Shown piece by piece: positions 17,044 to 62,441 of a stretch of 64,000 nt of DNA. The translations under genes were made by a program, and so were the position numbers. A model generated the notes under the pieces. It was given only the letters and a program-made list of their open reading frames with translations. It did not search any database and was not told the DNA's origin. The DNA comes from a virus, in IMG/VR virus record IMGVR_UViG_3300027969_002881, positions 32,001-96,000 of that record. One strand, given 5' to 3'. Position 1 is the stretch's first letter; each line of letters begins with the position of its first letter.

Positions 17044-17753
17044 AATTCTTTCATTTTTTCCATATCATAATATAAATTAGGATCTTCATCCGGACAAGGA
17101 TTAAAATCACTTCTATTTATTTTAAATTCTTCTCCATTGATGATTCTGGTTAATAACTTAGCAAACACCAAATTATTTTCATCAGTGATGTGATTTTGTA
17201 ATCTAAGTCTTTCTAAATACATACGATTATCTGGAATACCAAAATGCTTTCTTTCTTCAACGTTTACGTAATCAAGAAAGAATTCTAATCCGCTATACTT
17301 CATAATTTCTATGTTCTTAGATTCACCTAATGACGGTAACATAATTAATTTTTTATCATTTTCAATTGATAATTTAACAATTTTTTCTATTAACGCTATA
17401 TGAACAAAATTGTCGAATTTAGAATCTTGTAAATGCAAATAATATTGTATCGCCGCTTTAAATAATTCTTGTTCTTTATGCTGATACGGCTCGCAAGTTT
17501 TCAATCTATATTCTACCGAAGAGAGATTTGGAATTGCTTCTTCGTGGTATAGTCTACCTGGGGCAGTGACTAAAAATACTATAATATCAAAGTTCTTATA
17601 ATTTTCTATAAATTTTAAATAAGAATAAAATAAACTTGTTCCTCTTCTGGCAAAATTTTCAACTTGACATCTGTTCATTGTAGATAGCAATGAACCCCAA
17701 CTTGTTAGACCAGTGCTGGCGGCATAGCTATCACCAAATATTGCTATTTTCAT
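17040..17753 (-). CDS. SGNH/GDSL-like protein 1
   Basis: IAIFGDSY, NFARRGTS, C-terminal NH. Confidence 0.6.
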   Translation of the reverse strand: MKIAIFGDSYAASTGLTSWGSLLSTMNRCQVENFARRGTSLFYSYLKFIENYKNFDIIVFLVTAPGRLYHEEAIPNLSSVEYRLKTCEPYQHKEQELFKAAIQYYLHLQDSKFDNFVHIALIEKIVKLSIENDKKLIMLPSLGESKNIEIMKYSGLEFFLDYVNVEERKHFGIPDNRMYLERLRLQNHITDENNLVFAKLLTRIINGEEFKINRSDFNPCPDEDPNLYYDMEKMKEL

Positions 17754-19063
17754 TTAAACAATCTTGTATATTCAGGTACAATGTCTAGTATGCTATGCCC
17801 ACGTGCATGATCTAGGTAGTTGGTAAACTTAACAAACTCTGGAAGTTTATCGCTAAAGTCTGCACCCAACATGTATTTTGTAATACTGTTTAAAATATTT
17901 TCTGCGTTCTTAGCAATATCTTCTGGATATTCTGCGTTGAACTCAGTGATACATTTAGCATAGTATTCAACAATCTGTTGTTTCATATCAGCAGGTAATA
18001 CACGCACATTAACACGCTTTGGGCCGTGAGCTACATGATGTGTAATGATGGGACGCTTCTTTGTGCTGTTAATCTTAGTAAATCCGCTACTGTTTAACTT
18101 CCACTTCATAAAACGTGGTATGTGCCAAATATTATATGCTGTTACTGTACAAGCCAACCAAGCAAGTATGTTTGGATTCTTTTCTGCGTATTCATCTAAC
18201 TTTTGTAAATTCTTGTATGCTTGATTCCACTTTAATGGCCAACGCTGATATTCAACTGTTTCGCCCATGCCATCCATACTGGCACCAACACGAACTTGCT
18301 TAAACTGTGTCCACATATCTAATACACGGTTGGGCAAGTTACTCATATTGGTATTGTATTCAATAATCATCTTCTTACTATGACCTGCATCAATACATTT
18401 TTGTAGAAACTCGTAGTGACGTTCGATCATCATAGGCTCACCGCCTGCCATATAAACGTGCTTGATGTTTGGAATGTTTGCTTCTATCTGTGTCCAGAAA
18501 CTTTCACTGTTATGCCAGTCATAGTCTGTAGTAGACAATCTACCATTATCATTACGAGCTAATTTAACTGTTCCATGCGTATCTTTGTATTCATCACTGC
18601 CATGATATTCAGTCCATTGCTCGTACCAAGTATGACTATCAGTAGGGCCACACATGCGGCAAGCAAGATTACATAAGTTACCAAAACGCAGATCGTAGTA
18701 TTCTAAGTTTCTGTCTTTGATACTACCATCTTCTTCTGTGATATAACGAGCATCATCGATGTTAAACTTCCAGTTTTCTAATTCATATTGTCTGCGACTA
18801 TTAAGACCACTAGCTTCTTCTTGTTGACAACGTCCGCACTCTTGACTCCACTCACCTACTAACATGTTCTTGCGAACTTCTTTCATTAGTGTAGCATTAC
18901 GGGCAGTTTCCATATTGTCTCTACCAGCATTATACGGAGTTCCATCTTCGTGTCTAACAACACCTTGGTTATCCGTTACATTGGCTTGACAACAAACTCG
19001 AATGTCTCCATTATTGCGAACAGCCTGGAAGTTCCAAGGTATCGGGCAAAATGTATTACTCAT
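17750..19063 (-). CDS. radical SAM protein 1 (N-terminal Twitch/SPASM-like Cys motifs)
   Basis: CNLACRMC, GGEP; FCPIPW...RVCC...CGRC. Confidence 0.92.
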   Translation of the reverse strand: MSNTFCPIPWNFQAVRNNGDIRVCCQANVTDNQGVVRHEDGTPYNAGRDNMETARNATLMKEVRKNMLVGEWSQECGRCQQEEASGLNSRRQYELENWKFNIDDARYITEEDGSIKDRNLEYYDLRFGNLCNLACRMCGPTDSHTWYEQWTEYHGSDEYKDTHGTVKLARNDNGRLSTTDYDWHNSESFWTQIEANIPNIKHVYMAGGEPMMIERHYEFLQKCIDAGHSKKMIIEYNTNMSNLPNRVLDMWTQFKQVRVGASMDGMGETVEYQRWPLKWNQAYKNLQKLDEYAEKNPNILAWLACTVTAYNIWHIPRFMKWKLNSSGFTKINSTKKRPIITHHVAHGPKRVNVRVLPADMKQQIVEYYAKCITEFNAEYPEDIAKNAENILNSITKYMLGADFSDKLPEFVKFTNYLDHARGHSILDIVPEYTRLFK

Positions 19064-20444
19064 TGATTCTTCCTTTATATTCTATTATATCCTCGAATTG
19101 TTTCCATAAGTCAGGTAAGTCTGTTCTAATATCTTGTCTTCTAATCTTGTCAAGATCCACCGTGTATTGTATAAAAATCGTTATTTGTTCGCTGTTGCAT
19201 TCTTCGTTAATTGAACCAATTACTTTATTATACATAGTATTTAAATCTAATTCAGCTTCATGAATATCTTTTTCGTCAATTACATTTGATTTTAACTCTT
19301 CTAGTAAATTATTTTTATGCGCTAATAATTTTTCTATATGAACTTTTTTAGAAAACAATGGAAATATTAAAGATGGCTTTAAAAACTTAGGATCGTGTAC
19401 AATATTAACCATATAATTTTTACTATCCCACCATGGCTTACCTCTAAATTCTTGTTGTAAACCAAACCACCAATCAATCATAATATGAAAATGCCAAACA
19501 TTATATATACTAACGCATGGAACCCATTTTACTATATATTTTCTTGTTAAAAACGGTCCTTCTCCATTTGCTTCATAATACTTTCCTGTATATTGTTTTT
19601 CTAACTTTAACCATTCACAAACAGACTCATTGACAGTAGACCATTCACTGGGATAACGTATATAGTCATTTACTTTACCTACACCGTCGACACTTAAATT
19701 AATATAAACTTTAAAAAATTGATCTAAACGTGTTAGAACTTTTTCTTTCGGAACCCAACTTGCATTAGTAAAAATGTCTAACGTTATTTGATCAGCCCTG
19801 CCTGACTGTATTAGAATATCTAAGATTTTAATAAAATTTGGATGTAGCATGGGCTCGCCGCCTGTGAACTTAATTTCTTCAATGCTAGAAAAATCTTCTA
19901 TATTCCATTCTTTTTCTATATTATTAATTTTAGTTACTTTTCGTTCTTTGTAATAATTACTTAAAATAGCATCATCATCTTCCCAAGTAGTGCTCAAATC
20001 AGAGCCACATGTTCTGCATTTTAAATTACAATAATTACCCATGGTAATTTCTAAATATCTAATTTCTATAGAATTATCTTCTGGAGATGTTAAATTTTTA
20101 TTGTTACGAGTCCAGTTTTCTTTTTCTCTAAGACTTTTAATTCTCCTACGAGGATTTTTGTAGTTGTTGTTAAATGCAAATTCTTCTTCTTGATAACATT
20201 TTCTGCATCCAGGAACTTTTTTATCCTTTAACATTGTTTCTCGAATTTCTTGCCATTCAGATGAGCCTAATGCAAAAGTAAATGAAGTATTTTCATCGTT
20301 AATATTAAATTTGTCAAATTTATAAGTTTTATCAGGTAATTGATAATCTACATGTTTGGTATCAAATCTGCAACAAGGTTTTATTTGTCCGTTGGGTTTA
20401 GTTTGTGCGTGTATCCATGGCAGGACACAAAAAGTTTTACTCAT
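19056..20444 (-). CDS. radical SAM protein 2
   Basis: CNLKCRTC, FTGGEP, LSVDG; start reassigned to MSKTFCVLPW at 20444. Confidence 0.92.
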   Translation of the reverse strand: MSKTFCVLPWIHAQTKPNGQIKPCCRFDTKHVDYQLPDKTYKFDKFNINDENTSFTFALGSSEWQEIRETMLKDKKVPGCRKCYQEEEFAFNNNYKNPRRRIKSLREKENWTRNNKNLTSPEDNSIEIRYLEITMGNYCNLKCRTCGSDLSTTWEDDDAILSNYYKERKVTKINNIEKEWNIEDFSSIEEIKFTGGEPMLHPNFIKILDILIQSGRADQITLDIFTNASWVPKEKVLTRLDQFFKVYINLSVDGVGKVNDYIRYPSEWSTVNESVCEWLKLEKQYTGKYYEANGEGPFLTRKYIVKWVPCVSIYNVWHFHIMIDWWFGLQQEFRGKPWWDSKNYMVNIVHDPKFLKPSLIFPLFSKKVHIEKLLAHKNNLLEELKSNVIDEKDIHEAELDLNTMYNKVIGSINEECNSEQITIFIQYTVDLDKIRRQDIRTDLPDLWKQFEDIIEYKGRINE

Positions 20445-21603
20445 AACTCTTGTCCCCAGGGAACAATGGCAACTTGGTGCCTGGCGCACGTTTTGGTATC
20501 TTACTGTCGGCACTACTCACACAACTTGTTCCACCGCAGGGCATAGGCTTGTCGTACAACTTAAAGCCTGTTTCAATATGCCCTAATGGCACTTCGCTAC
20601 AGCTATAACTACGCTTTACGGTGCCATCTGGCTCACGAATAATAATACTGCGATAGCCACTGCTACATTCCCAGCCGTGAAAGTTGTTAAAGTTAAACGC
20701 ATTAAAACGTTCTGCTTGGTCCATGAACCAGGGATTGCCATCTTTATCTACAAATTCAATTTGATAATGCGGATCAATATCCACTTGTTTCTTACGCTGA
20801 GTATCTGCTTTGTCAATCATAAATGTTGGCTTTGGGCGTTTGACTAGTCCAGACTTTAATGCCTTTTCTTCTGTGTAAGCACGTTGTGGCATACCATTGT
20901 GTAACTTAGCCAACATCTCAGGTGTATACCCATCTACTACTCTGCTTGCGGTTGGATCGCTTTGTGGCTTGAGTGTTACGTTAATACCTCGGTTATGAAA
21001 GTATAAACTTAGATCATATATCTCATTAAACTGCTCCGGAACCATGACCATGTTGATAGTTATCTGTGTGTCGTATTCTTGGCATAAGACTAGTTTGTCA
21101 GCAAACTCTTCTACCTTCTTATCTGTATCAACGTGTTCACGATGGCAACTTGCTGTGATGCTAGCACGGTGGAAGTTCTTAACTGCTGGAACATATTGTT
21201 CTTCAAACCATTTAAGAGGGCGACTCATATTACTGGTCATGTGTACGCTGGTATAGTTTGTATTGGCAGCATCATCATTTAAATGATTAAGGATATCAAT
21301 GTAAGCAGGATGGAATGTAGGCTCGCCGCCACTTAGACTAAAGTGGAAACTATTAAATCCGTTTTCTCTTGATTGACGTTTAATCTCATCTACTGTGTGT
21401 AGCATTAGTGGAGTAGGACGATGATCCTTTGTATCACTGCGAGCATAGGGCCAGCAATAGCTACAACGATAGTTACAGTAGCGTCCTAAGAGCCAAGATA
21501 CAGTAAACATATCGCGGTATAGCATTGTTCTCTGTCCAACTCTAACTAAGTCACTGTAAGGTATCTTAGTAAAGTCGTATTCACTGGTTTTTAAATCACT
21601 CAT
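20437..21603 (-). CDS. radical SAM protein 3 (C-terminal SPASM/Twitch-like)
   Basis: CNYRCSYC, LSGGEPT, WECSSG...CVSSAD. Confidence 0.92.
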   Translation of the reverse strand: MSDLKTSEYDFTKIPYSDLVRVGQRTMLYRDMFTVSWLLGRYCNYRCSYCWPYARSDTKDHRPTPLMLHTVDEIKRQSRENGFNSFHFSLSGGEPTFHPAYIDILNHLNDDAANTNYTSVHMTSNMSRPLKWFEEQYVPAVKNFHRASITASCHREHVDTDKKVEEFADKLVLCQEYDTQITINMVMVPEQFNEIYDLSLYFHNRGINVTLKPQSDPTASRVVDGYTPEMLAKLHNGMPQRAYTEEKALKSGLVKRPKPTFMIDKADTQRKKQVDIDPHYQIEFVDKDGNPWFMDQAERFNAFNFNNFHGWECSSGYRSIIIREPDGTVKRSYSCSEVPLGHIETGFKLYDKPMPCGGTSCVSSADSKIPKRAPGTKLPLFPGDKSYE

Positions 21604-21829
21604 TTTGTTCGTATATAAATTTTATTTCTTTACCTGGTCCGACTTCACTGGGCAAGCCGCCATATTCTTTTACATACCAAGTTATAGCAGCCTTGTACCA
21701 TCCGGTACTATCGTGTCTGCTTTCCTTGTTAAACTTGTATATGTTATCGTTAGTAGCTTCCATACTACTGATAATTCTGGCAGCTTCTAATTGTAGCATT
21801 CTTAAAGGCATATTGTCAATATCAATCAT
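21596..21829 (-). CDS. hypothetical protein (77 aa)
   Basis: coupled ORF between radical SAM genes. Confidence 0.75.
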   Translation of the reverse strand: MIDIDNMPLRMLQLEAARIISSMEATNDNIYKFNKESRHDSTGWYKAAITWYVKEYGGLPSEVGPGKEIKFIYEQNE

Positions 21830-23031
21830 AGGTCTAAATTATTCATCAATCTAATTAATTTGTCAGTTTTCTTTACTGCTTGTTTACGCACCAAAAAATC
21901 TTCGGCTATTTGTTTGTAATCAGGATTATATGCTGCCGCTAGTCGTTGCTTCATTGTGTCGATGAATGTTATAAAATTCTCTTTGAAAACATGTTTGGTA
22001 TTACCTGCTTCTTTTAGTATAGCCTGTTCTGCCAGTTCTATATATTTAATATATTCTATCGGCAAATGTGAGATATCCATTTCATCTGGCCAACTGACAA
22101 AGTTACCGTACCATGTGAATTCTTTTTCTGGAGCATATAATTTGAATTGTTCGTAGACCCATGTAATATACAAGTGAAAACTTTTCAAATTAAAAATATT
22201 AATAGTGGGGCTCATTACAATTAATTCAGTTTTGGGATGTTGAATATATCTTTTAAAGTTTTCTCCGAAACGTTGCCAATCTAAACCATGGCGAAGACCT
22301 TCAGCATCTTCGCCAAACGCTTCATTACTAACTCCGATACCCCATGTTAGTTTACTGGTATCCATTCTAGTAATAACTTTGTCCATTAAGAATTTTTTAC
22401 TATTAGCATTAGTACATATTTCAAGTCTAATCTTTTTATCAGTTAATTTAGCTACATCTTCAATGTAATCTACCAACTCATAGAAACGTTCACTGGCTGT
22501 GGGTTCGCCACCTAAAAAGATAAAAATCAATTGAGTAGCAGTGACATCTTCTCGTAATATATAATTTTTAATCCAAGACTTGAAAATAATATAATCATCT
22601 TCTTTTGTAGAATCCCTAACAGGCAATCCTTCCTCTTGAGCAATTTTACTACTGCTATTTGGACTACAATATAGGCAAGCCAAATCACATGTACTATCTG
22701 TTTTAATTTCTATATAATGAACAAACTTATCATCGTCATTGACTTTGATTTGATTGTCTTTGAGAAAAATATTATCCCATCTATTGGCCCAATCTCTGTA
22801 TGCCGAGTTTCCTTTAGTATAGTCATCCCAACATGCATTACAATCACTGTGCGCGATGTTCTCCAAGCTTTGCTGCCTGCGCTCTTTAATTACATCACTT
22901 AGACTAATAAATTGTTCTGTTAATTTTTCTGGAAAACTATGTCCTTTTGCTTTACAGCAATGGCGTAGAGTTCTTGATTCGAAATCAATGTTTATATCAG
23001 TCCAGCTTTTGGAGCAGTAAGTTGTATTCAT
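21826..23031 (-). CDS. radical SAM protein 4
   Basis: CDLACLYC, LGGEPT; N-terminal YC...HCCK...CNAC. Confidence 0.9.
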   Translation of the reverse strand: MNTTYCSKSWTDINIDFESRTLRHCCKAKGHSFPEKLTEQFISLSDVIKERRQQSLENIAHSDCNACWDDYTKGNSAYRDWANRWDNIFLKDNQIKVNDDDKFVHYIEIKTDSTCDLACLYCSPNSSSKIAQEEGLPVRDSTKEDDYIIFKSWIKNYILREDVTATQLIFIFLGGEPTASERFYELVDYIEDVAKLTDKKIRLEICTNANSKKFLMDKVITRMDTSKLTWGIGVSNEAFGEDAEGLRHGLDWQRFGENFKRYIQHPKTELIVMSPTINIFNLKSFHLYITWVYEQFKLYAPEKEFTWYGNFVSWPDEMDISHLPIEYIKYIELAEQAILKEAGNTKHVFKENFITFIDTMKQRLAAAYNPDYKQIAEDFLVRKQAVKKTDKLIRLMNNLDL

Positions 23032-23034
23032 ATG

Positions 23035-23778
23035 TTATATGTTAACTATCATTGTTTCTTGTTTTTTATTAATAAAGAAACTTTCTTCTCTACCACTGCG
23101 TTTATAATGAGTCTCACCGTCTAAATATTCTTCTTCTATAGACGAATCTATACCAGCATATATATCTAGAATCTTTTGTTCCTTGGGTCCGATACAAACA
23201 GCAACGATTGCTTCAATTGGCTGTGATTTAAAATCGCTGCCAAACTCTTTGGCCAATAAGCTAGTAAATCTATCATTAAATAAAACATCTTCCATACCAC
23301 AGGCAACAAATGCTGTTCCGTATCCCAAATCTTCCGCTGTTAGTTGTGCGTATGTTGCGCTAATCATTGCGTCACGAACTGAGCCTTTGACCATGACATA
23401 ACGATCAGCTTCACTTTTGACTTCACTATAAACTCTGTCGTATACTTCTGTGCCATTGTTTTCTTTAATATCAACCATTTGATGCTCGGGGGCTGGATTA
23501 GTTACGTAAAGTAAAACTAAAGGTGCTTTGGTTTGTAACAGATAAACTTGTTGTCCTTTATCACCTTCACATGAAGTAATGTGATCACACAATTCTAATT
23601 TTAGTTGTTTACCCAAATCTGATTCCGTTAATGCAAAAACTTTGTAACCATAAATTTTGTTTTTACTAGGAGCACGTCTGGCGCTATCCAAAATTGTTTG
23701 TATATCATTTTCATCTATACTATTTTTCATTAAACGAGTAGTATGTCTCGCCTTGATTAATTTATTAACTGTTGACAT
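23035..23778 (-). CDS. nitroreductase family flavoprotein
   Basis: LIKARHTTR, ARRAPSKN, AEDLGYGT motifs. Confidence 0.8.
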   Translation of the reverse strand: MSTVNKLIKARHTTRLMKNSIDENDIQTILDSARRAPSKNKIYGYKVFALTESDLGKQLKLELCDHITSCEGDKGQQVYLLQTKAPLVLLYVTNPAPEHQMVDIKENNGTEVYDRVYSEVKSEADRYVMVKGSVRDAMISATYAQLTAEDLGYGTAFVACGMEDVLFNDRFTSLLAKEFGSDFKSQPIEAIVAVCIGPKEQKILDIYAGIDSSIEEEYLDGETHYKRSGREESFFINKKQETMIVNI

Positions 23779-23805
23779 TGTGGATCCTTAAATATTAAAT
23801 GCTCT

Positions 23806-23817
23806 GATAAATATTTA
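23806..23817. promoter_or_regulatory. overlapping divergent late-promoter-like site (palindrome TAAATATTTA)
   Basis: GATAAATA on + and CTAAATA on - within the only divergent intergenic gap. Confidence 0.5.
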
Positions 23818-23839
23818 GTAAATATAACCTGGATAAATT

Positions 23840-26036: not shown

Positions 26037-26037
26037 A

Positions 26038-33122: not shown

Positions 33123-33126
33123 GATA

Positions 33127-35275: not shown

Positions 35276-35280
35276 ATTAT

Positions 35281-35286: not shown

Positions 35287-35296
35287 CTCGTATATT

Positions 35297-36242: not shown

Positions 36243-36243
36243 A

Positions 36244-42882: not shown

Positions 42883-42883
42883 A

Positions 42884-46272: not shown

Positions 46273-46280
46273 TATTTATA
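46273..46280 (-). promoter_or_regulatory. T4-type late promoter TATAAATA
   Basis: exact consensus on - strand, 5 nt before ATG 46267. Confidence 0.65.
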
Positions 46281-50024: not shown

Positions 50025-50025
50025 T

Positions 50026-55706: not shown

Positions 55707-57124
55707 GAATTTATTCTTTCATGAAGATACTTAATAAAATCTTCTGTCGTTTTATCAGTTTTATACAATGTCAATAAATGCTCTCTATTATGTACAAGAA
55801 TATCTTCCATACTCCAATACCAGTCATGTAATTGTTCTTTACTCATGCTACATATTTTTTTAATTTGCTCATAGACCATGGCAACTCTTTTACTAGTATC
55901 CTGTTCTACATCATAACTTTCGTCAATGAAACCGCTGAATGTCTTAAAACCCATTTCTCTTAACAGTTGTAATGCTCCGGGAAATGATACAAACAAGAAT
56001 GGCAAATAATTTGCTATAGGTTTGCATATTTTTTCAGTGACTGATTTGTAGGGTCCGTCGGTATACGTTTCTGTACAGATATAAAAATAAGCATTGTTAT
56101 ATGAAGTGACCTGTGTGTCAGTCCAAGAACTAACGCTATTGAACGTATCAGTGGGTTCATCATTGAGTGACTTTGGTAATCGATTAAGTAGACGTTTTAA
56201 TTTTTCTTCAGTTAAATTGAATCCATACTTGTTGTTGAATTCACTGAGTATAGTGTCATAATATTTAAAATCTGACAACCAGCTCCAATCGCCAATATCT
56301 AATAGATTATCTTCATTCATTGCTAGGGCAAGAGCTACTCGATGTTCTCTGGATCTTCTTATTTTAAACAAGAATGAATTAGGTCTGATTGTATGTCGTG
56401 ATGAGTCAAATCTTTCTGGGTCAGTTCGGCCTTCTCTTGTTTGCATATAAAAATAGCTGGTATTACTGATGACAAACGGCCAACTTTTAACGATCAACAT
56501 CTGTTCACTGTCAGTGAACCACGACTTATAAACTTCTTCGGCATTAAATGTATTAAAAGCCAGCACGACTTGACTTTTTGGAATACCGCTGTATTCCAAT
56601 GAAGTATGTAAATTTTCATAGCTAGATTTGGAAACAAAGTTCTCTTGTGCATAGTCCAAGACAATTAATGCGCGGCCACTTTTTACATCATCTAACGCAT
56701 CTGCTGACATATATTTCCAAAAGAAATTGCCAGCTATTTTTGTGTTGTTAAAGGCAGCGCCGCAAAAAGCATCTATATGGGGGCTAATTTTTATAGGGTA
56801 TATGTATTTGTTAGTTCGTCTGCGTCCAAAATATAAACTTTCTTCTGTTGCATCAACTAATTCCATACAGGGGCCTTGATTCAAATGAGTGCCTGGTGCT
56901 GTGTTTGGCCACGTACCAAAGCTTTTATCAAACATAAAAGATAATACAGTATCAGTATCTGATCCCATGGGAGATTGTTGTTCAAATATACCACAATCTC
57001 TGATCTTAGTTGTATGCATACTGTGCAAATAATTAACTATTCCTAATTCTGTTTGTAGCGCATTTGCTAGCATTGAATTAGGAAATACATAATCGTAAAA
57101 TAAGGGTAATTGTACTTTATCCAT
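55703..57124 (-). CDS. GT-B/exostosin-like protein, paralog Z
   Basis: RRSREHR, YFYICTET, TEKICKPI, MGFKTF...ESYD; start 57124 (alt 57139). Confidence 0.5.
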   Translation of the reverse strand: MDKVQLPLFYDYVFPNSMLANALQTELGIVNYLHSMHTTKIRDCGIFEQQSPMGSDTDTVLSFMFDKSFGTWPNTAPGTHLNQGPCMELVDATEESLYFGRRRTNKYIYPIKISPHIDAFCGAAFNNTKIAGNFFWKYMSADALDDVKSGRALIVLDYAQENFVSKSSYENLHTSLEYSGIPKSQVVLAFNTFNAEEVYKSWFTDSEQMLIVKSWPFVISNTSYFYMQTREGRTDPERFDSSRHTIRPNSFLFKIRRSREHRVALALAMNEDNLLDIGDWSWLSDFKYYDTILSEFNNKYGFNLTEEKLKRLLNRLPKSLNDEPTDTFNSVSSWTDTQVTSYNNAYFYICTETYTDGPYKSVTEKICKPIANYLPFLFVSFPGALQLLREMGFKTFSGFIDESYDVEQDTSKRVAMVYEQIKKICSMSKEQLHDWYWSMEDILVHNREHLLTLYKTDKTTEDFIKYLHERINS

Positions 57125-57890
57125 TGTTAATATATGCATAATCGAATTTTGTTCTAAATTCTTTATTAAACTTGTTTTCCATGTTGATTTGACCCGTATA
57201 ATCGAAATTTCTATTCCACCTGTTTACATTTTTTCTTGTTTTAGTTGTGTTAAATCTAGGAAAAAATTCTTCAATGTATTTAAGATAAACATTCGTACTT
57301 GGGTGCCCGTCAACGTGTTGTATATCTTCCCAAAACGGACTATCGTAATATTGATTTTTCTTTTTCCATTCATCCAGAGTAATATCGACATCCAGTGTGT
57401 TATATATTTCATCAGCCATTGGTTGAATGAAATAACTGACATTGGCAGTGCCGTCGATATAAGCAGAATTGTCTATGCCCATAACTATATGATGTTTAAT
57501 GTTTTTTAATATTTGTTTGATTACTTTAACAGCTATCCAGGATTGATATACTGCCCAATCATCGCTCCACATATTTTTAACAAATTCAACAGTAACAGGA
57601 TCATTGGTATTTTGATTATAAGAATGCAAATCACCTTTTGTTTGCCAATTGGAATTCGGTGGCAGATAACTAAATCTTCCAAACCCAGTTAACATTACAA
57701 TAACAAAATCAGTATCTGGATTAAAGTTATACGTGTGATTAGCTTCTACTATTTTATTCATGATATAAATGTTAGAGCAGCCTGCACGACCATAATTGTA
57801 GTACTCTTCAAAATTTATACCAATTAAATCTGCCCATGTAGCATAAGCATAACTTGTATAACTGCAACCAAAGGCAAAACATCTTTTCAT
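57117..57890 (-). CDS. SGNH-like protein 5
   Basis: AFGCSYT, NYGRAGCSN, DGHP. Confidence 0.6.
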   Translation of the reverse strand: MKRCFAFGCSYTSYAYATWADLIGINFEEYYNYGRAGCSNIYIMNKIVEANHTYNFNPDTDFVIVMLTGFGRFSYLPPNSNWQTKGDLHSYNQNTNDPVTVEFVKNMWSDDWAVYQSWIAVKVIKQILKNIKHHIVMGIDNSAYIDGTANVSYFIQPMADEIYNTLDVDITLDEWKKKNQYYDSPFWEDIQHVDGHPSTNVYLKYIEEFFPRFNTTKTRKNVNRWNRNFDYTGQINMENKFNKEFRTKFDYAYINNG

Positions 57891-58774
57891 ATTAATTTAT
57901 TTACTAAGGGAAATAATATATCTTTACACCACACATCATAGCCTAGCTGACTTGGATGAAAGCCATCCTGTGCAAAGTATTCTCGATTATATTTAGTTTG
58001 TAAACTTTTTCTATTGTCGTGTGATAATAATATTGCGTCATCTTCAGAAACATCAATGAATTTATGTAAGTATTCAAACATGCCCTGAGATATTGTATTT
58101 GTATGATCAAACTGTTTGTACAAATAATTTACAATTTCATGATCTTTATGTTTAATAATATCTTCATATACATGCTTCATGAAGAATTGATTAATTAGTT
58201 TAATGCCATGTAACTTACAAAAGTTTTGAAGCATAATAATATTCTCTAAACTCGAGTGTGTTTTGCCAACACCATTAACTTCCTTATCCAGCAAATAATG
58301 CTGTTGTACAAAGTCTAAATTAGAGTCACTGCCATTAACAGTTAGATACCATCCACCGGATTTATTGTATTTGAATTCTGATCCGTTTTTGGTATAAAAT
58401 ATACCATCACCTTCTATATGATCATTGGTAAGATTCAAAAACTGATCAGTCATTCCACCGTAGAAGTCGGGCCAATCATTGACCATGCGTTCTATTACTA
58501 AGGGATTATCGACAAACCAAGATTTTCTGCTGGTTCCACTCCACATCACGACAACTAATATTTTATTTTTATTAATGCCTGATTCAATGGCAGATAATAT
58601 AGCAGACATTACACGCTTTTGTATAAGCTCTTGTCCACTACTATTTCGACCTGTGTGATTTGTAGTTAAGTTATGATTTTTTGAACGCAATAACTGTGTA
58701 ATGCCACCTACCCAGCCGTTGTCATCGTCACCGGTACTAAAACTACACCCTCCGGTGATTAAATGCCGAATCAT
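57887..58774 (-). CDS. SGNH-like protein 6
   Basis: TGGCSFS, DGFHPS. Confidence 0.6.
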   Translation of the reverse strand: MIRHLITGGCSFSTGDDDNGWVGGITQLLRSKNHNLTTNHTGRNSSGQELIQKRVMSAILSAIESGINKNKILVVVMWSGTSRKSWFVDNPLVIERMVNDWPDFYGGMTDQFLNLTNDHIEGDGIFYTKNGSEFKYNKSGGWYLTVNGSDSNLDFVQQHYLLDKEVNGVGKTHSSLENIIMLQNFCKLHGIKLINQFFMKHVYEDIIKHKDHEIVNYLYKQFDHTNTISQGMFEYLHKFIDVSEDDAILLSHDNRKSLQTKYNREYFAQDGFHPSQLGYDVWCKDILFPLVNKLI

Positions 58775-59436
58775 ATTAATCTAATATCTCTTAAGAATAA
58801 TTTTATTTTCCTAGCTAGTTCAGCATGTGCTTCTTCGTTGGGGTGATACCCATCTTTACATTTCATATCTTTTTCTGTGCAATAAACATTGAATATAGAT
58901 TTATCATGTCCCAATACAAATTTCTTTGTAGGTAGTAATTTAATTAAATTCTTGTATTGATCTTCAAATGGTTCTCTGTCTAAGTAGCCTTCTAAGAACG
59001 AGTTAACAAATGCATACTGTATATTTCTAGATTCTAGGAAAGATGATACAAAGATTTGTTGCATGTAATATTCCATTAGGCCTTCATAGTCATTATACAT
59101 GTGTTCATACCACACATCTTTCATTTTTTTAAGATATGGTTCGTAAGGATCATGACCCAGTAATACATTTTCCCATATTTTCTTTTCTGGAAAATAAACT
59201 GCTGTGCGTGAAATACCAGTCCAGGAAAACACAACTAATGTTTTTTCGGGATTAGGTATATCAGCATAATCGTTCAGCAAATTTATTATGCTGAGTTTAT
59301 TCGATCCGCCTGGTATACCTCTATTGGTCACTGGCGTTTTCATTAATTCACCTAGTTTGGCAGGCCAGGCGTCGCTGTTTGCTACTCCATCGCCAGCTGT
59401 AAAGCTGTCTCCATATGCATAAATCTTATCGATCAT
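58771..59436 (-). CDS. SGNH-like protein 7
   Basis: AYGDSFTAG, NRGIPGGSN, DGYHPNEEAH. Confidence 0.75.
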   Translation of the reverse strand: MIDKIYAYGDSFTAGDGVANSDAWPAKLGELMKTPVTNRGIPGGSNKLSIINLLNDYADIPNPEKTLVVFSWTGISRTAVYFPEKKIWENVLLGHDPYEPYLKKMKDVWYEHMYNDYEGLMEYYMQQIFVSSFLESRNIQYAFVNSFLEGYLDREPFEDQYKNLIKLLPTKKFVLGHDKSIFNVYCTEKDMKCKDGYHPNEEAHAELARKIKLFLRDIRLI

Positions 59437-60871
59437 TTTCCCTATATACTCCTATTTCGGCAAAAGATATTCCGGATTGCTCGACTAATTTAATAATCTC
59501 ATAATTTTTATTAAGTTCTATACTTTCATACCAATCAGCAATTTCCGGAAAAGTATTAATTATGTTTTTGTTTCTTCTAGCATCATACTGCGAATAGAAA
59601 CTCTTAAAGTCATGAAACAATGCAGACTTATCATGCGTAGTAGATACATGTCCAGTTTGAACAACTTCTAAATAGTCAATTAGTCTTTTGATACTGGCTT
59701 TCTCACCAGCTTCTAAATACTGACTATCTTTGTGTAAATCATACCACGTAGATAGTCTTGATTGAACTTCGTCTTTGAGATCGTTGGGCAATGTAATTGG
59801 ACTCATGTATGCAGGCCAGCGCAGTATGTTTAGATCCAGATAAGGTCTATTATTGCCGTACTTTGCTTTGAGTTCCAGCATATCGTCCATGAACTCAGTG
59901 ATACTGAACAAACACAGATTAGATATCGTCATCATGATTGTGACATTTCTAAATTTAGCATTTTCAATAAAGTTAACCAAGTTACTGCGCCATACTTGAT
60001 AGTCCATGCCATCACGTAGATACTCTGCATGTAAGCCGAAGCTTTCATTACTGGTAAACAAATCAAATTCTCTAACTGGCAGTGTTTTAGTTACTTCAAT
60101 TAATCGTTCCAGTGCCCTAGGGCTTGATCCAAGATTACTGTTAACCGCAAAGCGGATGTCCACGTATTCATGCTGTTGCATTATTTCAATAAAGCGCCAG
60201 AAGTTTTGACTTACTGTGCATTCTCCGCCGGTGATACGTAGCTCTTGTAGGCTCTTAGATAATTCAGGCCACCATTCAAAGAAAGCTTCTACATAAGGAT
60301 TGTCATCTAAATGTTTTCCATATGCTGTACTCCAAGAACCATCAGTTTGGTATGCGCCACCACCACCACCTTGGGCAATAAAATTCTGGTAAGGTCCATT
60401 CTTATTAATGTCCTGACTCCATGCTGTGCTGTAACCTGCGTTACAGTAACTACAAGCAAAATTACATTGTCTATCGAAACTGATCTCTAATGTTTTGAGA
60501 TTAACATCGTCAGCCCAGTTCATGTCCTGGATCTTTTTAATATCTTCTGCGCTGTATATAATACTTTTATTAATACGATCACTGATATTATCTCTGCCAA
60601 TGCCTTCTACTTTCCAACAATAGCCGCACTCTGCTGGCTTTTTGCCTTCCAGCATCATCTTACGCATACGCTTTTTATGATCAGTGTTATGTAATGCGCT
60701 GGGATTATAACTGATTTCACTGACATCAATTGAATGAGGCAAAGGCAAATGACAACTACCTGTATAGCCTGATCCTAAAAAGATACTGGCGTTATACCAT
60801 TTGGCCGCGCAAAAGCTAGGACTGATCGAGTTGAGATTCTCATCTCTCCATTTAATTAAGTCATCAGACAT
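59426..60871 (-). CDS. radical SAM protein 15
   Basis: CNFACSYC, ITGGE; FCAAKW...SCH...CGYC. Confidence 0.92.
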   Translation of the reverse strand: MSDDLIKWRDENLNSISPSFCAAKWYNASIFLGSGYTGSCHLPLPHSIDVSEISYNPSALHNTDHKKRMRKMMLEGKKPAECGYCWKVEGIGRDNISDRINKSIIYSAEDIKKIQDMNWADDVNLKTLEISFDRQCNFACSYCNAGYSTAWSQDINKNGPYQNFIAQGGGGGAYQTDGSWSTAYGKHLDDNPYVEAFFEWWPELSKSLQELRITGGECTVSQNFWRFIEIMQQHEYVDIRFAVNSNLGSSPRALERLIEVTKTLPVREFDLFTSNESFGLHAEYLRDGMDYQVWRSNLVNFIENAKFRNVTIMMTISNLCLFSITEFMDDMLELKAKYGNNRPYLDLNILRWPAYMSPITLPNDLKDEVQSRLSTWYDLHKDSQYLEAGEKASIKRLIDYLEVVQTGHVSTTHDKSALFHDFKSFYSQYDARRNKNIINTFPEIADWYESIELNKNYEIIKLVEQSGISFAEIGVYRENDR

Positions 60872-62441
60872 CTTTGTTAACTACCTTTTGTTTCATCTCT
60901 TTACAGATGTTATAAAATTCTGTGTACTCTGGATATACTTCTAAAAAGTTCGTACCATAGCGACGATCTAAATCATTGACAAAGTCATAGAACTTGGCAC
61001 GATTTAGTGCAAAATCTTTATTGCCTTCCAAATCATTTTTAGAATTGTAAGTGATATTCAAACATACACGCTTGAACTTTTCCAGCTCGAACTCTTCAAA
61101 AGCATGATGCATTTTCCAAGTCTTAACTTGTGTGGTATGATCCGCCATGTAGTTGATACTTGGTATCAAATACTCTTGAATAAGATCTTTACTGGCCCAT
61201 TGTGCATCTAAGAACGTGGGGTTGCGTAAATAAGGTAAGTCAATGCCATTGATACTAGGATGACTTGTAGTCTTTTTATCTCTATCTGTGTACGACTCTC
61301 CTGGCCAAGCAAAGTTAAAACCTGTTTCTTTTTCCCACATTTTTGCAATTGTTGGATTGGGGTTATATTTCTTTCTAAGTTCAAGCTGCCACTCAAATAA
61401 TTTTTGTATGCTGGAAATACTCAGAATGTTAAACGTAACCATTGTGGTAATTCTAATATTGCCCATTTGCATGATTTGTTCGTAACGCTTGCAGAACTTT
61501 TCAAAGTCCAGGCCTGGGCGTAAGTATTCAGCACGTTCACCCCAACCATCGACACTGGTAAAGATAGTTAGTTTCTTAATATAGTTACCACGACTTAAAA
61601 TCTCAGCACGTTCAATGAACTTGTCCCACAACTTATCAGGTACGCCCAAGTTAGTATTAATACTAAGTTCGAGTTCTGGATTCGGATTATCAATAAACCA
61701 ATCCATACTTTTATATGTTTCTTTACTTAACAGTGGCTCGCCACCTGTAATACGAAACACATGTAAGTGTTTGTAAGCTTCAGGCCACCATTTCCAAAAT
61801 GCGTCAATATAAGGATTGAATTCGTTGTTCTTATAACTTAAACTATCTAAGTCGGGTTGCCAGCCCTGTGCCCATACGGTATGATCTGTATTTTCCAACA
61901 ACTTAACTGGACCATTTTGTTTTAGTTCTTCTACCCACTTGCTACTGTACTCAGGGCCACAGTATACGCATTTAAAGTTACATACATTACTAAAGTCTAC
62001 TTCGAGATAGCTTGGGTAAAAGTCTTTGTTAGGATCACTGGCTTGAACTTCATCATGCTTTTCTAATGCCCATGGTTCTAAACTCTTGTAGAATCTATCA
62101 CTGGGACTTTTGTTATCTTCAACACGCCAGCAGTAGTCACATTCACTTGGGCGTTGACCTTCCAACATTTCTTTTCTAGCTTGTTTAAGTATACTGGTAT
62201 TAAACAATGCTCCTGGATTCTTTTGTATTTCTGCCAATGGAATCTTATGTGGCACTGGATGGTGACAACTGTGTGTCATTCCTGTACCCAGGTGCATGGT
62301 AACTTGTGTAAACTTTGCCAAGCAAAAACCTGGACCAGTGCTGTCTAATAGTTCTTTTGTTTTGTCAATATTTGGTCCTGTACGAGCAACTTTATTATCA
62401 TATCCGATATCCCAATTGATATCGCTGAGTTTCTTTTTCAT
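60864..62441 (-). CDS. radical SAM protein 16
   Basis: CNFKCVYC, ITGGEP; FCLAKF...SCHH...CDYC; paralog of 59426..60871. Confidence 0.93.
   Translation of the reverse strand: MKKKLSDINWDIGYDNKVARTGPNIDKTKELLDSTGPGFCLAKFTQVTMHLGTGMTHSCHHPVPHKIPLAEIQKNPGALFNTSILKQARKEMLEGQRPSECDYCWRVEDNKSPSDRFYKSLEPWALEKHDEVQASDPNKDFYPSYLEVDFSNVCNFKCVYCGPEYSSKWVEELKQNGPVKLLENTDHTVWAQGWQPDLDSLSYKNNEFNPYIDAFWKWWPEAYKHLHVFRITGGEPLLSKETYKSMDWFIDNPNPELELSINTNLGVPDKLWDKFIERAEILSRGNYIKKLTIFTSVDGWGERAEYLRPGLDFEKFCKRYEQIMQMGNIRITTMVTFNILSISSIQKLFEWQLELRKKYNPNPTIAKMWEKETGFNFAWPGESYTDRDKKTTSHPSINGIDLPYLRNPTFLDAQWASKDLIQEYLIPSINYMADHTTQVKTWKMHHAFEEFELEKFKRVCLNITYNSKNDLEGNKDFALNRAKFYDFVNDLDRRYGTNFLEVYPEYTEFYNICKEMKQKVVNKDV

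What the first reader, a model, noticed from the sequence alone, without database searches (positions are those of the whole stretch)
17750..62441. Sixteen radical SAM genes in 45 kb: a phage radical-chemistry complex of unknown product
Sixteen ORFs carry CxxxCxxC plus GGE(P) or G..DP motifs. They sort into at least four paralog groups: FCxxPW/F-type (17750, 19056, 26038, 28064, 29317, 33869); FCxAK or HCCK-type (21826, 38242, 59426, 60864); DP/FSIDG-type (30624, 35571, 36244, 40177); and GGEPT/WEC-type (20437, 37305). They are translationally coupled to SGNH-like proteins, methyltransferases, 2OG oxygenases, an SDR and a nitroreductase, and continue into NDP-sugar and GT genes. None matches the usual phage radical SAMs (NrdG, QueE) by context. 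I found no clear RiPP precursor array. The most economical model is stepwise tailoring of a glycan or polymer (virion surface, host surface or hypermodified DNA).
Basis: partly seen in the sequence, partly recalled or inferred. Interest (0 to 1): 0.92.

Follow-up and report, generated by a model that had tools for sequence, protein, structure and literature searches.

The report
Phage radical-SAM glycan-tailoring island
A giant uncultured freshwater phage devotes about 47 kb, placed just behind its tail and baseplate genes, to 16 iron-sulfur "radical SAM" enzymes mixed with sugar-building and sugar-transferring enzymes. The island most likely builds and chemically edits an unusual sugar coat, but nobody has tested what this widespread enzyme set makes.

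Summary
Sixteen ORFs between 17750 and 62441 carry CxxxCxxC, and all match radical SAM models. The contig is a real phage: T4-type PolB, gp6/gp5-like baseplate proteins and a VrlC-like giant virion protein. It is related to Rak2/Atu_ph07-type jumbo phages, is about 35% complete, and comes from freshwater.

- ten N-terminal-twitch enzymes (NCBIfam NF033640, no known function);
- four with a C-terminal Cys domain, one of them split into two ORFs;
- two of a third type.

All keep their cluster cysteines. dN/dS is 0.03-0.05 for the four radical SAM genes that could be scored.

Fold prediction shows that seven unannotated proteins are glycosyltransferases (four GT-A, three GT-B). The island also holds seven SGNH-like proteins, NDP-sugar enzymes and a carbamoyltransferase, and no membrane protein. 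The same radical SAM orthologues sit among glycosyltransferases in Parcubacteria and Bdellovibrionota genomes.

Best reading: cytoplasmic glycan assembly with radical editing, probably of virion proteins. The product and the chemistry are unknown.

Multi-radical-SAM islands in aquatic T4-like phages are already in the literature, and this scan has reported the same kind of island on other DNA (76 notes in at least 66 genomes match the search words). This is a new, very large member of a known but uncharacterised kind.

The parts
33869..35275 (-). Radical SAM group A (N-terminal twitch, NF033640). The most conserved member and part of the conserved core.
   Evidence: NF033640 419.9 bits. Thousands of homologues at 70-89% identity. 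Bacterial orthologues at 54-63%. Clade support 100/100. dN/dS 0.03.
17750..19063 (-). Radical SAM group A, core member.
   Evidence: NF033640 385 bits. Orthologues in the Parcubacteria and Bacteriovoracaceae genomes at 39-44%, clade support 100/99. dN/dS 0.053.
19056..20513 (-). Radical SAM group A.
   Evidence: NF033640 269.9 bits. Groups with 26038 and a Parcubacteria orthologue, support 100/99.
21826..23031 (-). Radical SAM group A, divergent.
   Evidence: NF033640 170.5 bits, at the cut-off. 64% identical orthologue in L009.
26038..28101 (+). Radical SAM group A with an N-terminal extension of about 225 aa of unknown type. Part of a three-gene unit on the opposite strand.
   Evidence: NF033640 239.2 bits over residues 231-672.
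28064..29320 (-). Radical SAM group A.
   Evidence: NF033640 320.9 bits; Pfam SPASM hit at residues 9-71. Parcubacteria orthologue, support 99/98.
29317..30627 (-). Radical SAM group A.
   Evidence: NF033640 235.3 bits.
38242..39435 (-). Radical SAM group A, divergent; just below the family cut-off.
   Evidence: NF033640 153.7 bits against a cut-off of 170. Keeps all seven invariant Cys and GGE.
59426..60871 (-). Radical SAM group A.
   Evidence: NF033640 285.7 bits. dN/dS 0.048. P0376 carries modules most like 60864 (32%) and 59426 (47%), in window order.
60864..62441 (-). Radical SAM group A.
   Evidence: NF033640 309.9 bits. dN/dS 0.026.
40177..41352 (-). Radical SAM group B (cluster motif at the N-terminus, Cys-rich C-terminal domain), core member.
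   Evidence: PF04055. Bacterial orthologues at 44-46%. Invariant C18/C22/C25 plus C307/C375/C379.
30624..31694 (-). Radical SAM group B.
   Evidence: PF04055 38.7 bits. 31% identical to 40177.
36244..37308 (-). Radical SAM group B. No Pfam hit.
   Evidence: NCBIfam radical SAM models and paralogy with 40177 (E 1.6e-40).
35571..36266 (-). Radical SAM group B, core half only (231 aa).
   Evidence: Aligns to residues 10-190 of its paralogues, then stops.
35297..35599 (-). Detached C-terminal Cys domain of the split group B gene (100 aa). It is in another frame and overlaps 35571 by 29 nt.
   Evidence: Aligns to residues 262-353 of 30624. Carries the PCCW and CxxxC motifs. The Logan contig of run X1 reproduces the region without differences.
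20437..21603 (-). Radical SAM group C (GGEPT, four-Cys C-terminal domain), core member.
   Evidence: PF04055 49.3 bits. Bacterial orthologues at 56-58%. Invariant C313/C335/C356/C361.
37305..38261 (-). Radical SAM group C.
   Evidence: PF04055 31.5 bits. 24% identical to 20437.
62451..63434 (-). GT-A-fold glycosyltransferase-like protein, family D.
   Evidence: AF2 model with pLDDT 88.6. VIA Z 10.2 (B4GALNT1), 9.3 (WrtF), 9.1 (STIV A197), 8.2 (PBCV-1 A64R). Invariant D67/D69 as a DxD candidate.
42196..44630 (-). Three more family D paralogues: 42196-42909, 42884-43909 and 43881-44630.
   Evidence: blastp E 1e-20 to 1e-81 to one another and to 62451. Orthologues lie next to the radical SAM core in L001, L003, L006 and L009.
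50997..53829 (-). Two GT-B-fold proteins, family E: 50997-52442 and 52420-53829.
   Evidence: AF2 model with pLDDT 92.3. Foldseek hits GtfA/B (3.2e-5), SdgB, VldE, T4 BGT and alpha-1,3-FucT.
55703..57139 (-). Third family E (GT-B-like) paralogue.
   Evidence: blastp E 1e-35 to 52420.
48100..51012 (-). Three NDP-sugar epimerase/dehydratase-type SDRs.
   Evidence: PF01370, E 6e-34 to 8e-47. dN/dS 0.02-0.04.
54453..55706 (-). Fusion of an FkbM methyltransferase with an RmlC-like 3,5-epimerase/isomerase.
   Evidence: PF05050 and PF00908.
53814..54443 (-). ThDP-binding half of a split E1/transketolase-like enzyme.
   Evidence: PF00676, PF13292.
46283..46825 (-). Pyrimidine-binding half of the split ThDP enzyme.
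   Evidence: PF02779.
44655..46127 (-). Carbamoyltransferase (NodU/TobZ type).
   Evidence: PF16861 at 1.9e-53 and PF02543 at 3.7e-34. The Parcubacteria cluster has YrdC plus TsaD-like genes.
57117..59436 (-). Three SGNH-like proteins: 57117-57890, 57887-58774 and 58771-59436.
   Evidence: DUF6071/Lipase_GDSL hit for 58771, weak DUF6071 hit for 57887. N-terminal GCS/GDS block for all three.
33127..33882 (-). SGNH-like protein.
   Evidence: Weak DUF6071 hit. N-terminal VGDSF block.
17040..17753 (-). SGNH-like protein by motif only; paralogue of 39401-40180.
   Evidence: N-terminal FGDSYA block. blastp E 5e-16 to 39401.
39401..40180 (-). SGNH-like protein by motif only.
   Evidence: N-terminal YGDSFA block.
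46827..47687 (-). SGNH-like protein by motif only.
   Evidence: N-terminal AGCSFTWG block.
23840..26036 (+). Asp/Arg-hydroxylase-type cupin (23840-24577), translationally coupled to a virus-only 488-aa protein of unknown fold (24570-26036).
   Evidence: PF05118 at 3e-12. The 488-aa family occurs as a domain in radical SAM proteins in L006 (964 aa) and P0366. Fusion to the hydroxylase is an Atlas lead only, score 0.84.
23035..23778 (-). Nitroreductase-family flavoprotein.
   Evidence: PF00881 at 8e-8.
31669..32301 (-). Class I SAM methyltransferase (Methyltransf_24).
   Evidence: PF13578 at 2.9e-9.
46273..46280 (-). T4-late-promoter-like TATAAATA, in the largest non-coding gap of the block (155 bp), upstream of the carbamoyltransferase.
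   Evidence: The motif is depleted: 2 in the window against 11.1 +/- 3.4 expected. The only other non-coding gap over 25 bp lies between the divergent genes at 23778/23840.

Best explanation
The island is a phage-borne, entirely cytoplasmic pathway for building and tailoring a glycan. It probably acts late in infection and most likely decorates virion proteins (tail fibres, baseplate or capsid).

Proposed flow:
1. The three SDRs, the RmlC-like domain and the split ThDP enzyme turn host NDP-hexoses into deoxy or branched sugars.
2. Four GT-A and three GT-B enzymes transfer sugars to the acceptor and extend the chain.
3. Methyltransferases, the carbamoyltransferase and about seven SGNH-like proteins decorate hydroxyl groups.
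4. The 16 radical SAM enzymes each abstract a hydrogen from one particular unactivated sugar carbon, by BtrN-like chemistry with a fully Cys-ligated auxiliary cluster as electron conduit. The outcome would be oxidation, epimerisation, deoxygenation or C-C coupling. These are changes that ordinary sugar enzymes cannot make after assembly.

Shown here: enzyme families and folds, intact cofactor motifs, purifying selection, absence of membrane proteins, position behind the baseplate and tail-fibre-like genes, and conservation of the radical SAM core among GTs in phages and bacteria.

Inferred: the substrate class, the acceptor, the reaction types, the timing, and that the genes act in one pathway.
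For: Phage identity and position:
- PolB phrog_262 at 1.8e-189, gp6-like wedge at 4.7e-263, gp5-like hub, and a 2844-aa VrlC-like protein directly upstream in the same orientation.
- The closest cultured relatives are jumbo phages at 42-49% PolB identity.

Radical SAM enzymes:
- All 16 keep CxxxCxxC.
- Group A keeps four further invariant Cys and GGE across 24 phage and bacterial sequences. Groups B and C keep C-terminal Cys sets.
- The group A N-terminal domain aligns to the BtrN twitch segment with all four Cys matched (E 1e-4; alignment).
- dN/dS is 0.02-0.17 for every gene that could be scored.

Sugar context:
- GT-A fold for family D (Z up to 10.2, DxD candidate).
- GT-B fold for family E.
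- NDP-sugar SDRs, RmlC-like domain, carbamoyltransferase, ThDP enzyme and SGNH proteins.
- No predicted membrane-spanning protein in the 47 island proteins screened; one weak hydrophobic segment in SDR 48100.

Conservation:
- The same island recurs in many metagenome contigs.
- Orthologues of 40177, 33869, 20437 and 17750 lie in arrays beside GT1/4, GT2 and GT28 genes, an aminotransferase, YrdC plus TsaD-like genes and a cupin hydroxylase in Parcubacteria and Bacteriovoracaceae genomes.
- At least four group A orthogroups unite phage and bacterial members with 99-100% support.
- Natural fusions join two or three N-twitch modules in one protein, and join the 24570-type domain to them.

Timing:
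- TATAAATA is depleted. Two of its three minus-strand copies in the contig lie in non-coding gaps inside or just upstream of the block.
Against: - No member of NF033640, group B or group C has a known reaction.
- The nearest solved cores include peptide maturases (SkfB, TvgB, CteB, anSME) as well as sugar or nucleotide enzymes (BlsE, viperins, MoaA, BtrN), so homology does not pick the substrate class.
- No acceptor has been identified.
- No sugar nucleotidyltransferase was found on the fragment.
- The GT assignments rest on predicted folds with modest scores. Foldseek E for family D is only about 2e-3.
- Late expression rests on a motif borrowed from T4 and was not tested for this phage.
- Gene adjacency does not prove a single pathway.
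Confidence: 0.5

Rival explanations
1. The island makes a soluble oligosaccharide or aminoglycoside-like small molecule, or heavily modified NDP-sugars. The radical SAM enzymes act on free or nucleotide-bound sugars, not on a virion-attached glycan.
For: - All the enzymes are soluble.
- BtrN, BlsE and viperins, which act on small sugar or nucleotide substrates, are among the nearest solved relatives.
- Carbamoyltransferases of the TobZ/NodU type and split ThDP enzymes are typical of natural-product sugar pathways (established knowledge).
Against: - There is no exporter, resistance gene or scaffold-forming enzyme in the island.
- Seven GTs suggest a chain built on an acceptor.
- The island lies in the virion module.
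Confidence: 0.15
2. The island hypermodifies phage DNA. Glycosyl chains are attached to modified bases and then edited by radical SAM enzymes, to evade restriction.
For: - T4 beta-glucosyltransferase is among the GT-B fold matches.
- ThyX abuts the island.
- Radical SAM enzymes take part in thymidine hypermodification (PMC8989533, seen in the list only; not read).
Against: - No DNA-binding, kinase or base-hydroxymethylating enzyme was found in the island.
- The bacterial counterparts sit among ordinary GT2/GT4 genes.
- Another note of this scan, untested here, places a DpdA/7-deazaguanine module elsewhere on the contig.
Confidence: 0.1
3. The radical SAM enzymes modify a protein or peptide, either RiPP-like or as cross-links or epimerisations in virion proteins. 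The sugar genes would be a separate neighbouring module.
For: - SPASM/twitch enzymes are mostly peptide maturases.
- SkfB and TvgB are the top solved matches.
- An Asp/Asn-hydroxylase-type cupin and a nitroreductase-family protein are present.
- A conserved 77-aa ORF lies among the radical SAM genes.
Against: - No RRE/PqqD domain, leader peptidase, transporter or Cys/Ser-rich precursor was seen.
- Groups B and C start directly with the cluster motif, and group A starts with the twitch domain, so there is no room for a recognition element.
- GT-A genes are interleaved with the radical SAM core in several lineages.
Confidence: 0.1
4. The island remodels a host envelope glycan (LPS, capsule or S-layer glycan) during infection, for example to block superinfection. 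This is the usual reading of 'LPS genes' in marine myophages.
For: The pelagimyophage and cyanomyophage literature reads GT-rich hypervariable islands this way (PMC7029224). The bacterial counterparts probably serve cell-surface glycans.
Against: The island has no flippase, polymerase, ligase, polyprenyl-phosphate transferase or any other predicted membrane protein. It would have to hand intermediates to host machinery.
Confidence: 0.1
5. The array is decaying junk, an assembly chimera, or cellular DNA mis-binned as viral.
For: One gene is split (35571/35297). The contig is a fragment, about 35% complete.
Against: - All cofactor motifs are intact.
- dN/dS is 0.02-0.17.
- Phage hallmark genes lie on both sides.
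- Contigs from two freshwater runs of different studies give depth in all 30 bins of 16400-36399; no single contig spans it.
- The island is syntenic in independent contigs.
Confidence: 0.02

Closest known systems
NCBIfam NF033640, N_Twi_rSAM (twitch domain-containing radical SAM protein)
   Same: Ten of the 16 enzymes match the model over its full length. Nine score above the curated cut-off. All have the N-terminal four-Cys domain followed by CxxxCxxC and GGE.
   Different: The family has a name but no assigned reaction, and no solved structure by sequence search. Here it appears as ten anciently diverged copies in one phage island, together with two further radical SAM types.
BtrN (butirosin 2-deoxy-scyllo-inosamine dehydrogenase), the archetypal twitch-domain radical SAM enzyme
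   Same: The group A N-terminal domain aligns to the BtrN twitch segment with all four cysteines matched, at chain positions 169, 187, 232 and 235 of 4m7s_A. From memory, these ligate the BtrN auxiliary cluster. BtrN acts on a carbohydrate-like substrate.
   Different: In BtrN the twitch domain follows the core; here it precedes it, like a circular permutation. The sequence match is weak (E 1e-4 within the whole profile, 0.29 for the domain alone). No shared substrate has been shown.
Radical-SAM-rich hypervariable islands of aquatic T4-like phages (PMC5332604: T4-like genome with 12 radical SAM genes; PMC7029224: 'host recognition cluster' next to VrlC with GTs and radical SAM cassettes)
   Same: A large island beside the VrlC-type baseplate protein, holding GTs, LPS-like sugar genes and cassettes of radical SAM genes that vary between related phages.
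   Different: This phage belongs to the Rak2/Atu_ph07-like jumbo lineage by PolB and comes from freshwater. The far border is ThyX and replication genes, not gp14. Sixteen copies exceeds the 12 noted in PMC5332604. Those papers offered no function.
Virus-encoded virion glycosylation (PBCV-1 A64R capsid GT; Mimivirus R655/R699; mycobacteriophage virion glycosylation, PMC10527164, known only as a reference seen)
   Same: The GT-A family D model matches PBCV-1 A64R (Z 8.2) and the Mimivirus GTs. In both cases a cytoplasmic, virus-encoded glycan machinery lacks membrane export components.
   Different: As far as I know, none of those systems contains radical SAM enzymes. Virion glycosylation is not demonstrated here.
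RiPP radical SAM/SPASM maturases (SkfB, TvgB, CteB, anSME)
   Same: They give the best sequence matches among solved cores. Auxiliary Fe-S domains are present.
   Different: There is no RRE, precursor, protease or transporter. The auxiliary domain is at the N-terminus in ten copies. The genes are embedded among GT and NDP-sugar genes.

Membership tests
Radical SAM superfamily (PF04055) | CxxxCxxC motif for the SAM-binding [4Fe-4S] cluster | tested here: met
   Present in 16 of 16. Invariant in the alignments of groups A, B and C.
Radical SAM superfamily (PF04055) | Match to the family profile | tested here: met
   15 of 16 hit at E<1e-3, ten above the gathering score. 36244 is recovered only through NCBIfam radical SAM models and paralogy.
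Radical SAM superfamily (PF04055) | Reductive cleavage of SAM to the 5'-deoxyadenosyl radical | not testable with these tools
   Needs anaerobic biochemistry.
NF033640 N_Twi_rSAM | Full-length score above the curated cut-off (170 bits) | tested here: met
   Nine genes score 170.5-419.9 bits. 38242 scores 153.7, below the cut-off, and is a divergent relative. Groups B and C score under 55 bits and are not members.
NF033640 N_Twi_rSAM | Twitch-type Cys domain placed N-terminal to the radical SAM core | tested here: met
   Invariant C10, C28, C91 and C94 lie ahead of C147/C151/C154. A Pfam SPASM hit lies at residues 9-71 of 28064. The domain aligns to the BtrN twitch segment.
RiPP radical SAM maturase systems | Precursor peptide and RRE/PqqD-like recognition element | tested here: inconclusive
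   No PqqD/RRE hit in any island protein at the E-values used. No Cys-rich small ORF. The conserved 77-aa ORF 21596-21829 has no Cys and no family. Remote RREs could be missed.
Cobalamin-dependent (class B) radical SAM methyltransferases | N-terminal B12-binding domain | tested here: not met
   No B12-binding hit in any of the 16. The N-terminus is either the twitch domain or the cluster motif itself.
GT-A glycosyltransferases | Rossmann-like GT-A fold with a DxD metal/nucleotide-sugar motif | tested here: met
   AF2 pLDDT 88.6. The best matches are all GT-A enzymes, Z 8-10.2 over residues 5-171. D67 and D69 are invariant in 31 sequences. Activity not tested.
GT-B glycosyltransferases | Two-Rossmann-domain GT-B fold | tested here: met
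   AF2 pLDDT 92.3. The 12 Foldseek matches at E<=1e-3 listed are all GT-B enzymes. TM-scores are low (0.2-0.36), probably because of domain orientation. Donor and acceptor are unknown.
SGNH/GDSL hydrolase-acyltransferase superfamily | Block I Gly-Asp/Cys-Ser motif near the N-terminus, plus a profile match | tested here: inconclusive
   Profile support for 58771, and weakly for 33127 and 57887. Motif only for 17040, 39401, 46827 and 57117.
Host recognition cluster of T4-like marine myophages (PMC7029224) | Hypervariable island between VrlC and neck gene gp14, containing tail fibres, GTs and radical SAM cassettes | tested here: inconclusive
   The VrlC-like gene and tail-fibre-like genes lie directly upstream. 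The other border is ThyX and replication genes, not gp14. Cassette-type variation is seen against L009, L019 and L021.

The most novel reading that the evidence does not exclude
N-twitch radical SAM enzymes and their two companion types form a previously unrecognised class of glycan-editing enzymes. They would rewrite individual sugar carbons (epimerise, oxidise, deoxygenate or cross-link) after or during assembly. Phages would use arrays of them, sometimes fused into multi-module proteins, to give their virion proteins a chemically exotic, rapidly diversifiable sugar coat that shapes host recognition or protects the particle.
Probability: 0.3. Interest if true: 0.85.

Novelty: new member of a known kind. 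Interest (0 to 1): 0.6.

Why it matters
Radical SAM enzymes that act on carbohydrates are few and are mostly known from antibiotic pathways. The family studied here has at least 8,541 clusters at 50% identity (profile search at E<=1e-30). No member has a known reaction or a solved structure.

This island offers a compact, selection-tested set of 16 such enzymes next to their likely partner GTs and sugar-nucleotide enzymes. That makes it a practical entry point for discovering new sugar C-H chemistry.

If the product decorates virions, it would also bear on how large aquatic phages vary host recognition and particle surfaces. That question is left open by the 'LPS gene' and 'host recognition cluster' annotations in marine phage genomics.

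The finding itself is not unique. The same kind of island is in the literature and has been reported repeatedly in this scan.

Tried and rejected
- Sequence search of PDB with 33869, 62451, 52420 and 24570 gave nothing useful.
- PHROGs found no family for seven ORFs at 1127-8647.
- Pfam found no GT in the island, and nothing for 24570, 32298, 39401, 41352, 46827, 47684, 57117, 63397 or the 77-aa ORF.
- Cultured phages hold only distant relatives of 33869: 21-24% identity in Ralstonia phage RsoM2USA and Vibrio phages K566/K567.
- Complex prediction on 60864 plus 59426 returned 'no answer' (score 0.00). It is no evidence either way.
- No RNA holder was listed for the stretch, so expression could not be examined.
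- Fe-S assembly proteins (PF01521, PF01592), flavodoxin (PF00258) and sugar nucleotidyltransferase (PF00483) were not found on the 128-kb fragment. It is only about 35% of the genome, so they may lie elsewhere.
- I first took the phage for marine because relatives come from Tara and marine JGI samples. The run search showed freshwater and lake metagenomes.
- dS was saturated for about half of the comparisons with L009, so no ratio is given for those genes.
- Literature searches for NF033640, 'N-terminal twitch', jumbo phage plus radical SAM plus GT, and Bdellovibrio plus radical SAM plus GT found no functional study.

Full report
**What is there**

The window is bases 32001-96000 of a 127,886-bp IMG/VR virus record. 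CheckV rates the record about 35% complete, which by inference implies a genome near 350 kb.

Pfam Radical_SAM matches 15 of the 16 at E<1e-3, ten of them above the gathering score. 36244 is recovered through NCBIfam radical SAM models and paralogy. All radical SAM matches of the contig lie inside the window. 37 of 47 gene junctions in the island overlap, and only two non-coding gaps exceed 25 bp.

**It is a phage, and the island sits in the virion module**

- Left of the island lie a T4-type PolB (phrog_262, E 1.8e-189), a MoxR-like ATPase, a VWA/DUF2201 protein and ThyX.
- Right of it, in the same orientation, lie a gp6-like baseplate wedge (phrog_10646, E 4.7e-263), a 2844-aa VrlC-like virion protein and a gp5-like hub.
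- Between VrlC and the island lie seven small genes. One has a weak hit to a tail-fibre intramolecular-chaperone domain.
- PolB is closest to the jumbo phages Phosso, Atu_ph07 and Rak2-like phages, at 42-49% identity.
- The stretch is held almost fully by one freshwater metagenome run, which is probably the source, and about half by a second run from another study. Contigs from both runs give depth along the whole of 16400-36399, though no single contig spans it.

A cellular or chimeric origin is therefore very unlikely.

**Three radical SAM families, all intact**

All-against-all BLAST gives three families.

*Group A* has ten members: 17750, 19056, 21826, 26038, 28064, 29317, 33869, 38242, 59426 and 60864.
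- It matches NCBIfam NF033640 'N_Twi_rSAM' over the full length. Nine score above the 170-bit cut-off; 38242 scores 153.7.
- In an alignment of 24 phage and bacterial members the invariant residues are C10, C28, C91, C94, the cluster triad C147/C151/C154, and GGE.
- The N-terminal domain aligns to the C-terminal twitch domain of BtrN with all four cysteines matched (E 1e-4 within the full profile; alignment).
- Group A is therefore a permuted BtrN-type architecture with a fully Cys-ligated auxiliary site.

*Group B* has four members: 30624, 35571, 36244 and 40177. The cluster motif lies at residues 18-25, and the C-terminus carries a PCC...C...C domain.

*Group C* has two members: 20437 and 37305. 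It has GGEPT and four invariant C-terminal cysteines.

One group B gene is split. 35571 encodes only the core. The overlapping ORF 35297-35599, in another frame, encodes the Cys domain. The Logan contig of run X1 shows the same sequence.

The paralogues are only 20-36% identical to one another, so they are old.

**Selection and age**

- Against close relatives (L021, L019, L009), dN/dS is 0.02-0.17 for every gene that could be scored.
- The radical SAM values are 0.026 (60864), 0.048 (59426), 0.03 (33869) and 0.053 (17750).
- Where dS is saturated, dN stays modest.
- A maximum-likelihood tree groups 33869, 17750, 28064 and the pair 19056/26038 each with its own Parcubacteria and/or Bacteriovoracaceae orthologue, at 99-100% support.
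- The paralogues had therefore differentiated before phages and bacteria exchanged the array.

**The companions are sugar enzymes, more of them than Pfam shows**

Pfam gives:
- three NDP-sugar SDRs;
- an FkbM methyltransferase fused to an RmlC-like domain;
- a split ThDP enzyme (53814 and 46283);
- a NodU/TobZ-type carbamoyltransferase;
- a Methyltransf_24;
- a nitroreductase-family protein;
- an Asp/Arg-hydroxylase-type cupin;
- SGNH/DUF6071 proteins.

Two paralogue families without Pfam hits were modelled.
- *Family D* (42196, 42884, 43881, 62451) has more than 7,700 homologues, all unannotated. Its model has pLDDT 88.6. It matches only GT-A enzymes over residues 5-171: Z 10.2 B4GALNT1, 9.3 WrtF, 9.1 STIV A197, 8.2 PBCV-1 A64R. 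It has an invariant D-x-D.
- *Family E* (50997, 52420, 55703) has a model with pLDDT 92.3. It matches GT-B enzymes: GtfA/B, SdgB, VldE, T4 BGT and fucosyltransferases.

Four more proteins carry the N-terminal GDS/GCS block of SGNH enzymes, which makes about seven in all. A hydrophobicity screen of the 47 island proteins predicts no membrane-spanning protein; the single weak hydrophobic segment is in SDR 48100.

**The island recurs in phages and has bacterial counterparts**

- 33869 has thousands of homologues at 70-89% identity. The nearest ESM Atlas clusters are almost all viral.
- Contigs carrying them show the same radical-SAM-rich neighbourhoods with cassette-level differences. L019 has twelve or more radical SAM genes in a row. 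L021 has RmlC and a methyltransferase as separate genes.
- A Parcubacteria genome carries eleven radical SAM genes in a row on a 1.27-Mb contig. A Bacteriovoracaceae genome carries several arrays.
- These arrays include orthologues of 40177, 33869, 20437 and 17750. They are flanked by GT1/4, GT28 and GT2 genes, an aminotransferase, an Asn-synthase-like protein, YrdC plus TsaD-like proteins, a cupin hydroxylase and a GLF-like flavoprotein.
- In a sample of 151 genomes from the phylum of the Bacteriovoracaceae genome, 31 have NF033640 members above cut-off, up to eleven or more per genome. None of 14 model organisms does.
- A profile search of 1.84 billion representatives finds 8,541 clusters at E<=1e-30.
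- Many hits are natural fusions of two or three N-twitch modules. P0376 carries modules most like 60864 (32%) and 59426 (47%), in window order. P0364 pairs a 17750-like (45%) with a weakly 19056-like (28%) module. P0366 joins a domain weakly like 24570 (22%) to two radical SAM modules, as does a 964-aa protein in L006.

**Mechanism**

The consistent association with GTs and sugar-nucleotide enzymes in unrelated genomes, the lack of export machinery, and the position behind the baseplate and tail-fibre-like genes all point one way. I read the island as cytoplasmic glycan assembly with heavy tailoring, most likely on virion proteins. Precedents for virus-made virion glycans exist (PBCV-1 and Mimivirus GTs among the fold matches).

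The BtrN-type, fully ligated auxiliary cluster suggests reactions in which a substrate radical is oxidised or re-reduced, that is dehydrogenation, epimerisation and related chemistry. This is inference.

TATAAATA, the T4 late-promoter core (established knowledge), is strongly depleted: 2 in the window against 11.1 +/- 3.4 expected, and 6 in 128 kb. Of its three minus-strand copies in the contig, two fall in non-coding gaps: one inside the block, upstream of the carbamoyltransferase, and one just upstream of it, ahead of the genes that follow the tail-fibre-like genes. This fits late co-expression with virion genes but is untested.

**What stays open**

Homology cannot choose between sugar and peptide substrates. 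The nearest solved cores include SkfB, TvgB (8vpo; PMC10878394, from the list), CteB and anSME, as well as BlsE, viperins, MoaA and BtrN. No acceptor, nucleotidyltransferase, Fe-S assembly protein or reductant was found on this fragment. The rivals are a soluble glycoside product, DNA glycosylation, protein or peptide modification, and host-envelope remodelling. Together they keep about 45% of the probability.

**Novelty**

- NF033640 is a catalogued family without a function.
- A T4-like marine genome with 12 radical SAM genes was noted in 2017 (PMC5332604).
- Radical SAM cassettes in the VrlC-adjacent host recognition cluster of pelagimyophages were noted in 2020 (PMC7029224).
- This scan has reported the same kind of island on other DNA: 76 notes in at least 66 genomes match the search words.

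The window is therefore a new and unusually large member of a known but uncharacterised kind.
- fold-level identification of seven GTs;
- the four-Cys correspondence with BtrN;
- orthogroups shared with bacteria at high support;
- the multi-module fusions;
- the split group B gene;
- the promoter-motif placement.

Noticed in passing
window 35297-36266 (-): A group B radical SAM gene is split into a 231-aa core ORF and an overlapping 100-aa Cys-domain ORF in another frame. It could be a two-piece enzyme, a frameshift needing recoding, or a fresh pseudogene.
   Followed up: partly
window 21596-21829 (-): A conserved 77-aa ORF without Cys lies between radical SAM genes 21826 and 20437, overlapping both. 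It is about 75% identical in L009 (20974-21207). No family found.
   Followed up: partly
window 46273-46280 (-), 14407-14414 (+); contig 98468 (-): TATAAATA is about fivefold depleted in the contig. Two of its three minus-strand copies fall in non-coding gaps inside or just upstream of the co-directional block, as expected if T4-type late promoters are used.
   Followed up: partly
P0363-P0512: 35 of the 150 best family representatives are 750-1466 aa long. Most hold two or three tandem N-twitch radical SAM modules, and some carry a 24570-like domain.
   Followed up: partly
window 23840-28101 (+): A three-gene unit (cupin hydroxylase, 488-aa unknown, 687-aa radical SAM with a 225-aa N-terminal extension) is inverted relative to the rest of the island. 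Its hydroxylase and 488-aa genes are also inverted in L009. L019 has two hydroxylase-plus-unknown pairs.
   Followed up: partly
window 54453-55706 (-) versus L021 8262-9378: FkbM methyltransferase and RmlC-like domains are fused in the window. A close relative instead has a stand-alone RmlC-like gene followed by a Methyltransf_24 gene, and an extra 376-aa gene between the SDRs.
   Followed up: no
window 11578-14327 (+): A MoxR-like AAA ATPase (phrog_1297) is followed by a DUF2201 metallopeptidase/VWA protein (phrog_1314), a pair common in large phages.
   Followed up: no
window 1127-8647 (+): Seven co-oriented ORFs of 240-412 aa have no PHROG family at E<=1e-3. Another note of this scan reads them as a small-molecule pathway; not examined here.
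   Followed up: no
L019 1-13780: A related contig carries at least twelve consecutive radical SAM genes, including an 89%-identical orthologue of 33869, followed by a UDP-glucose dehydrogenase.
   Followed up: no
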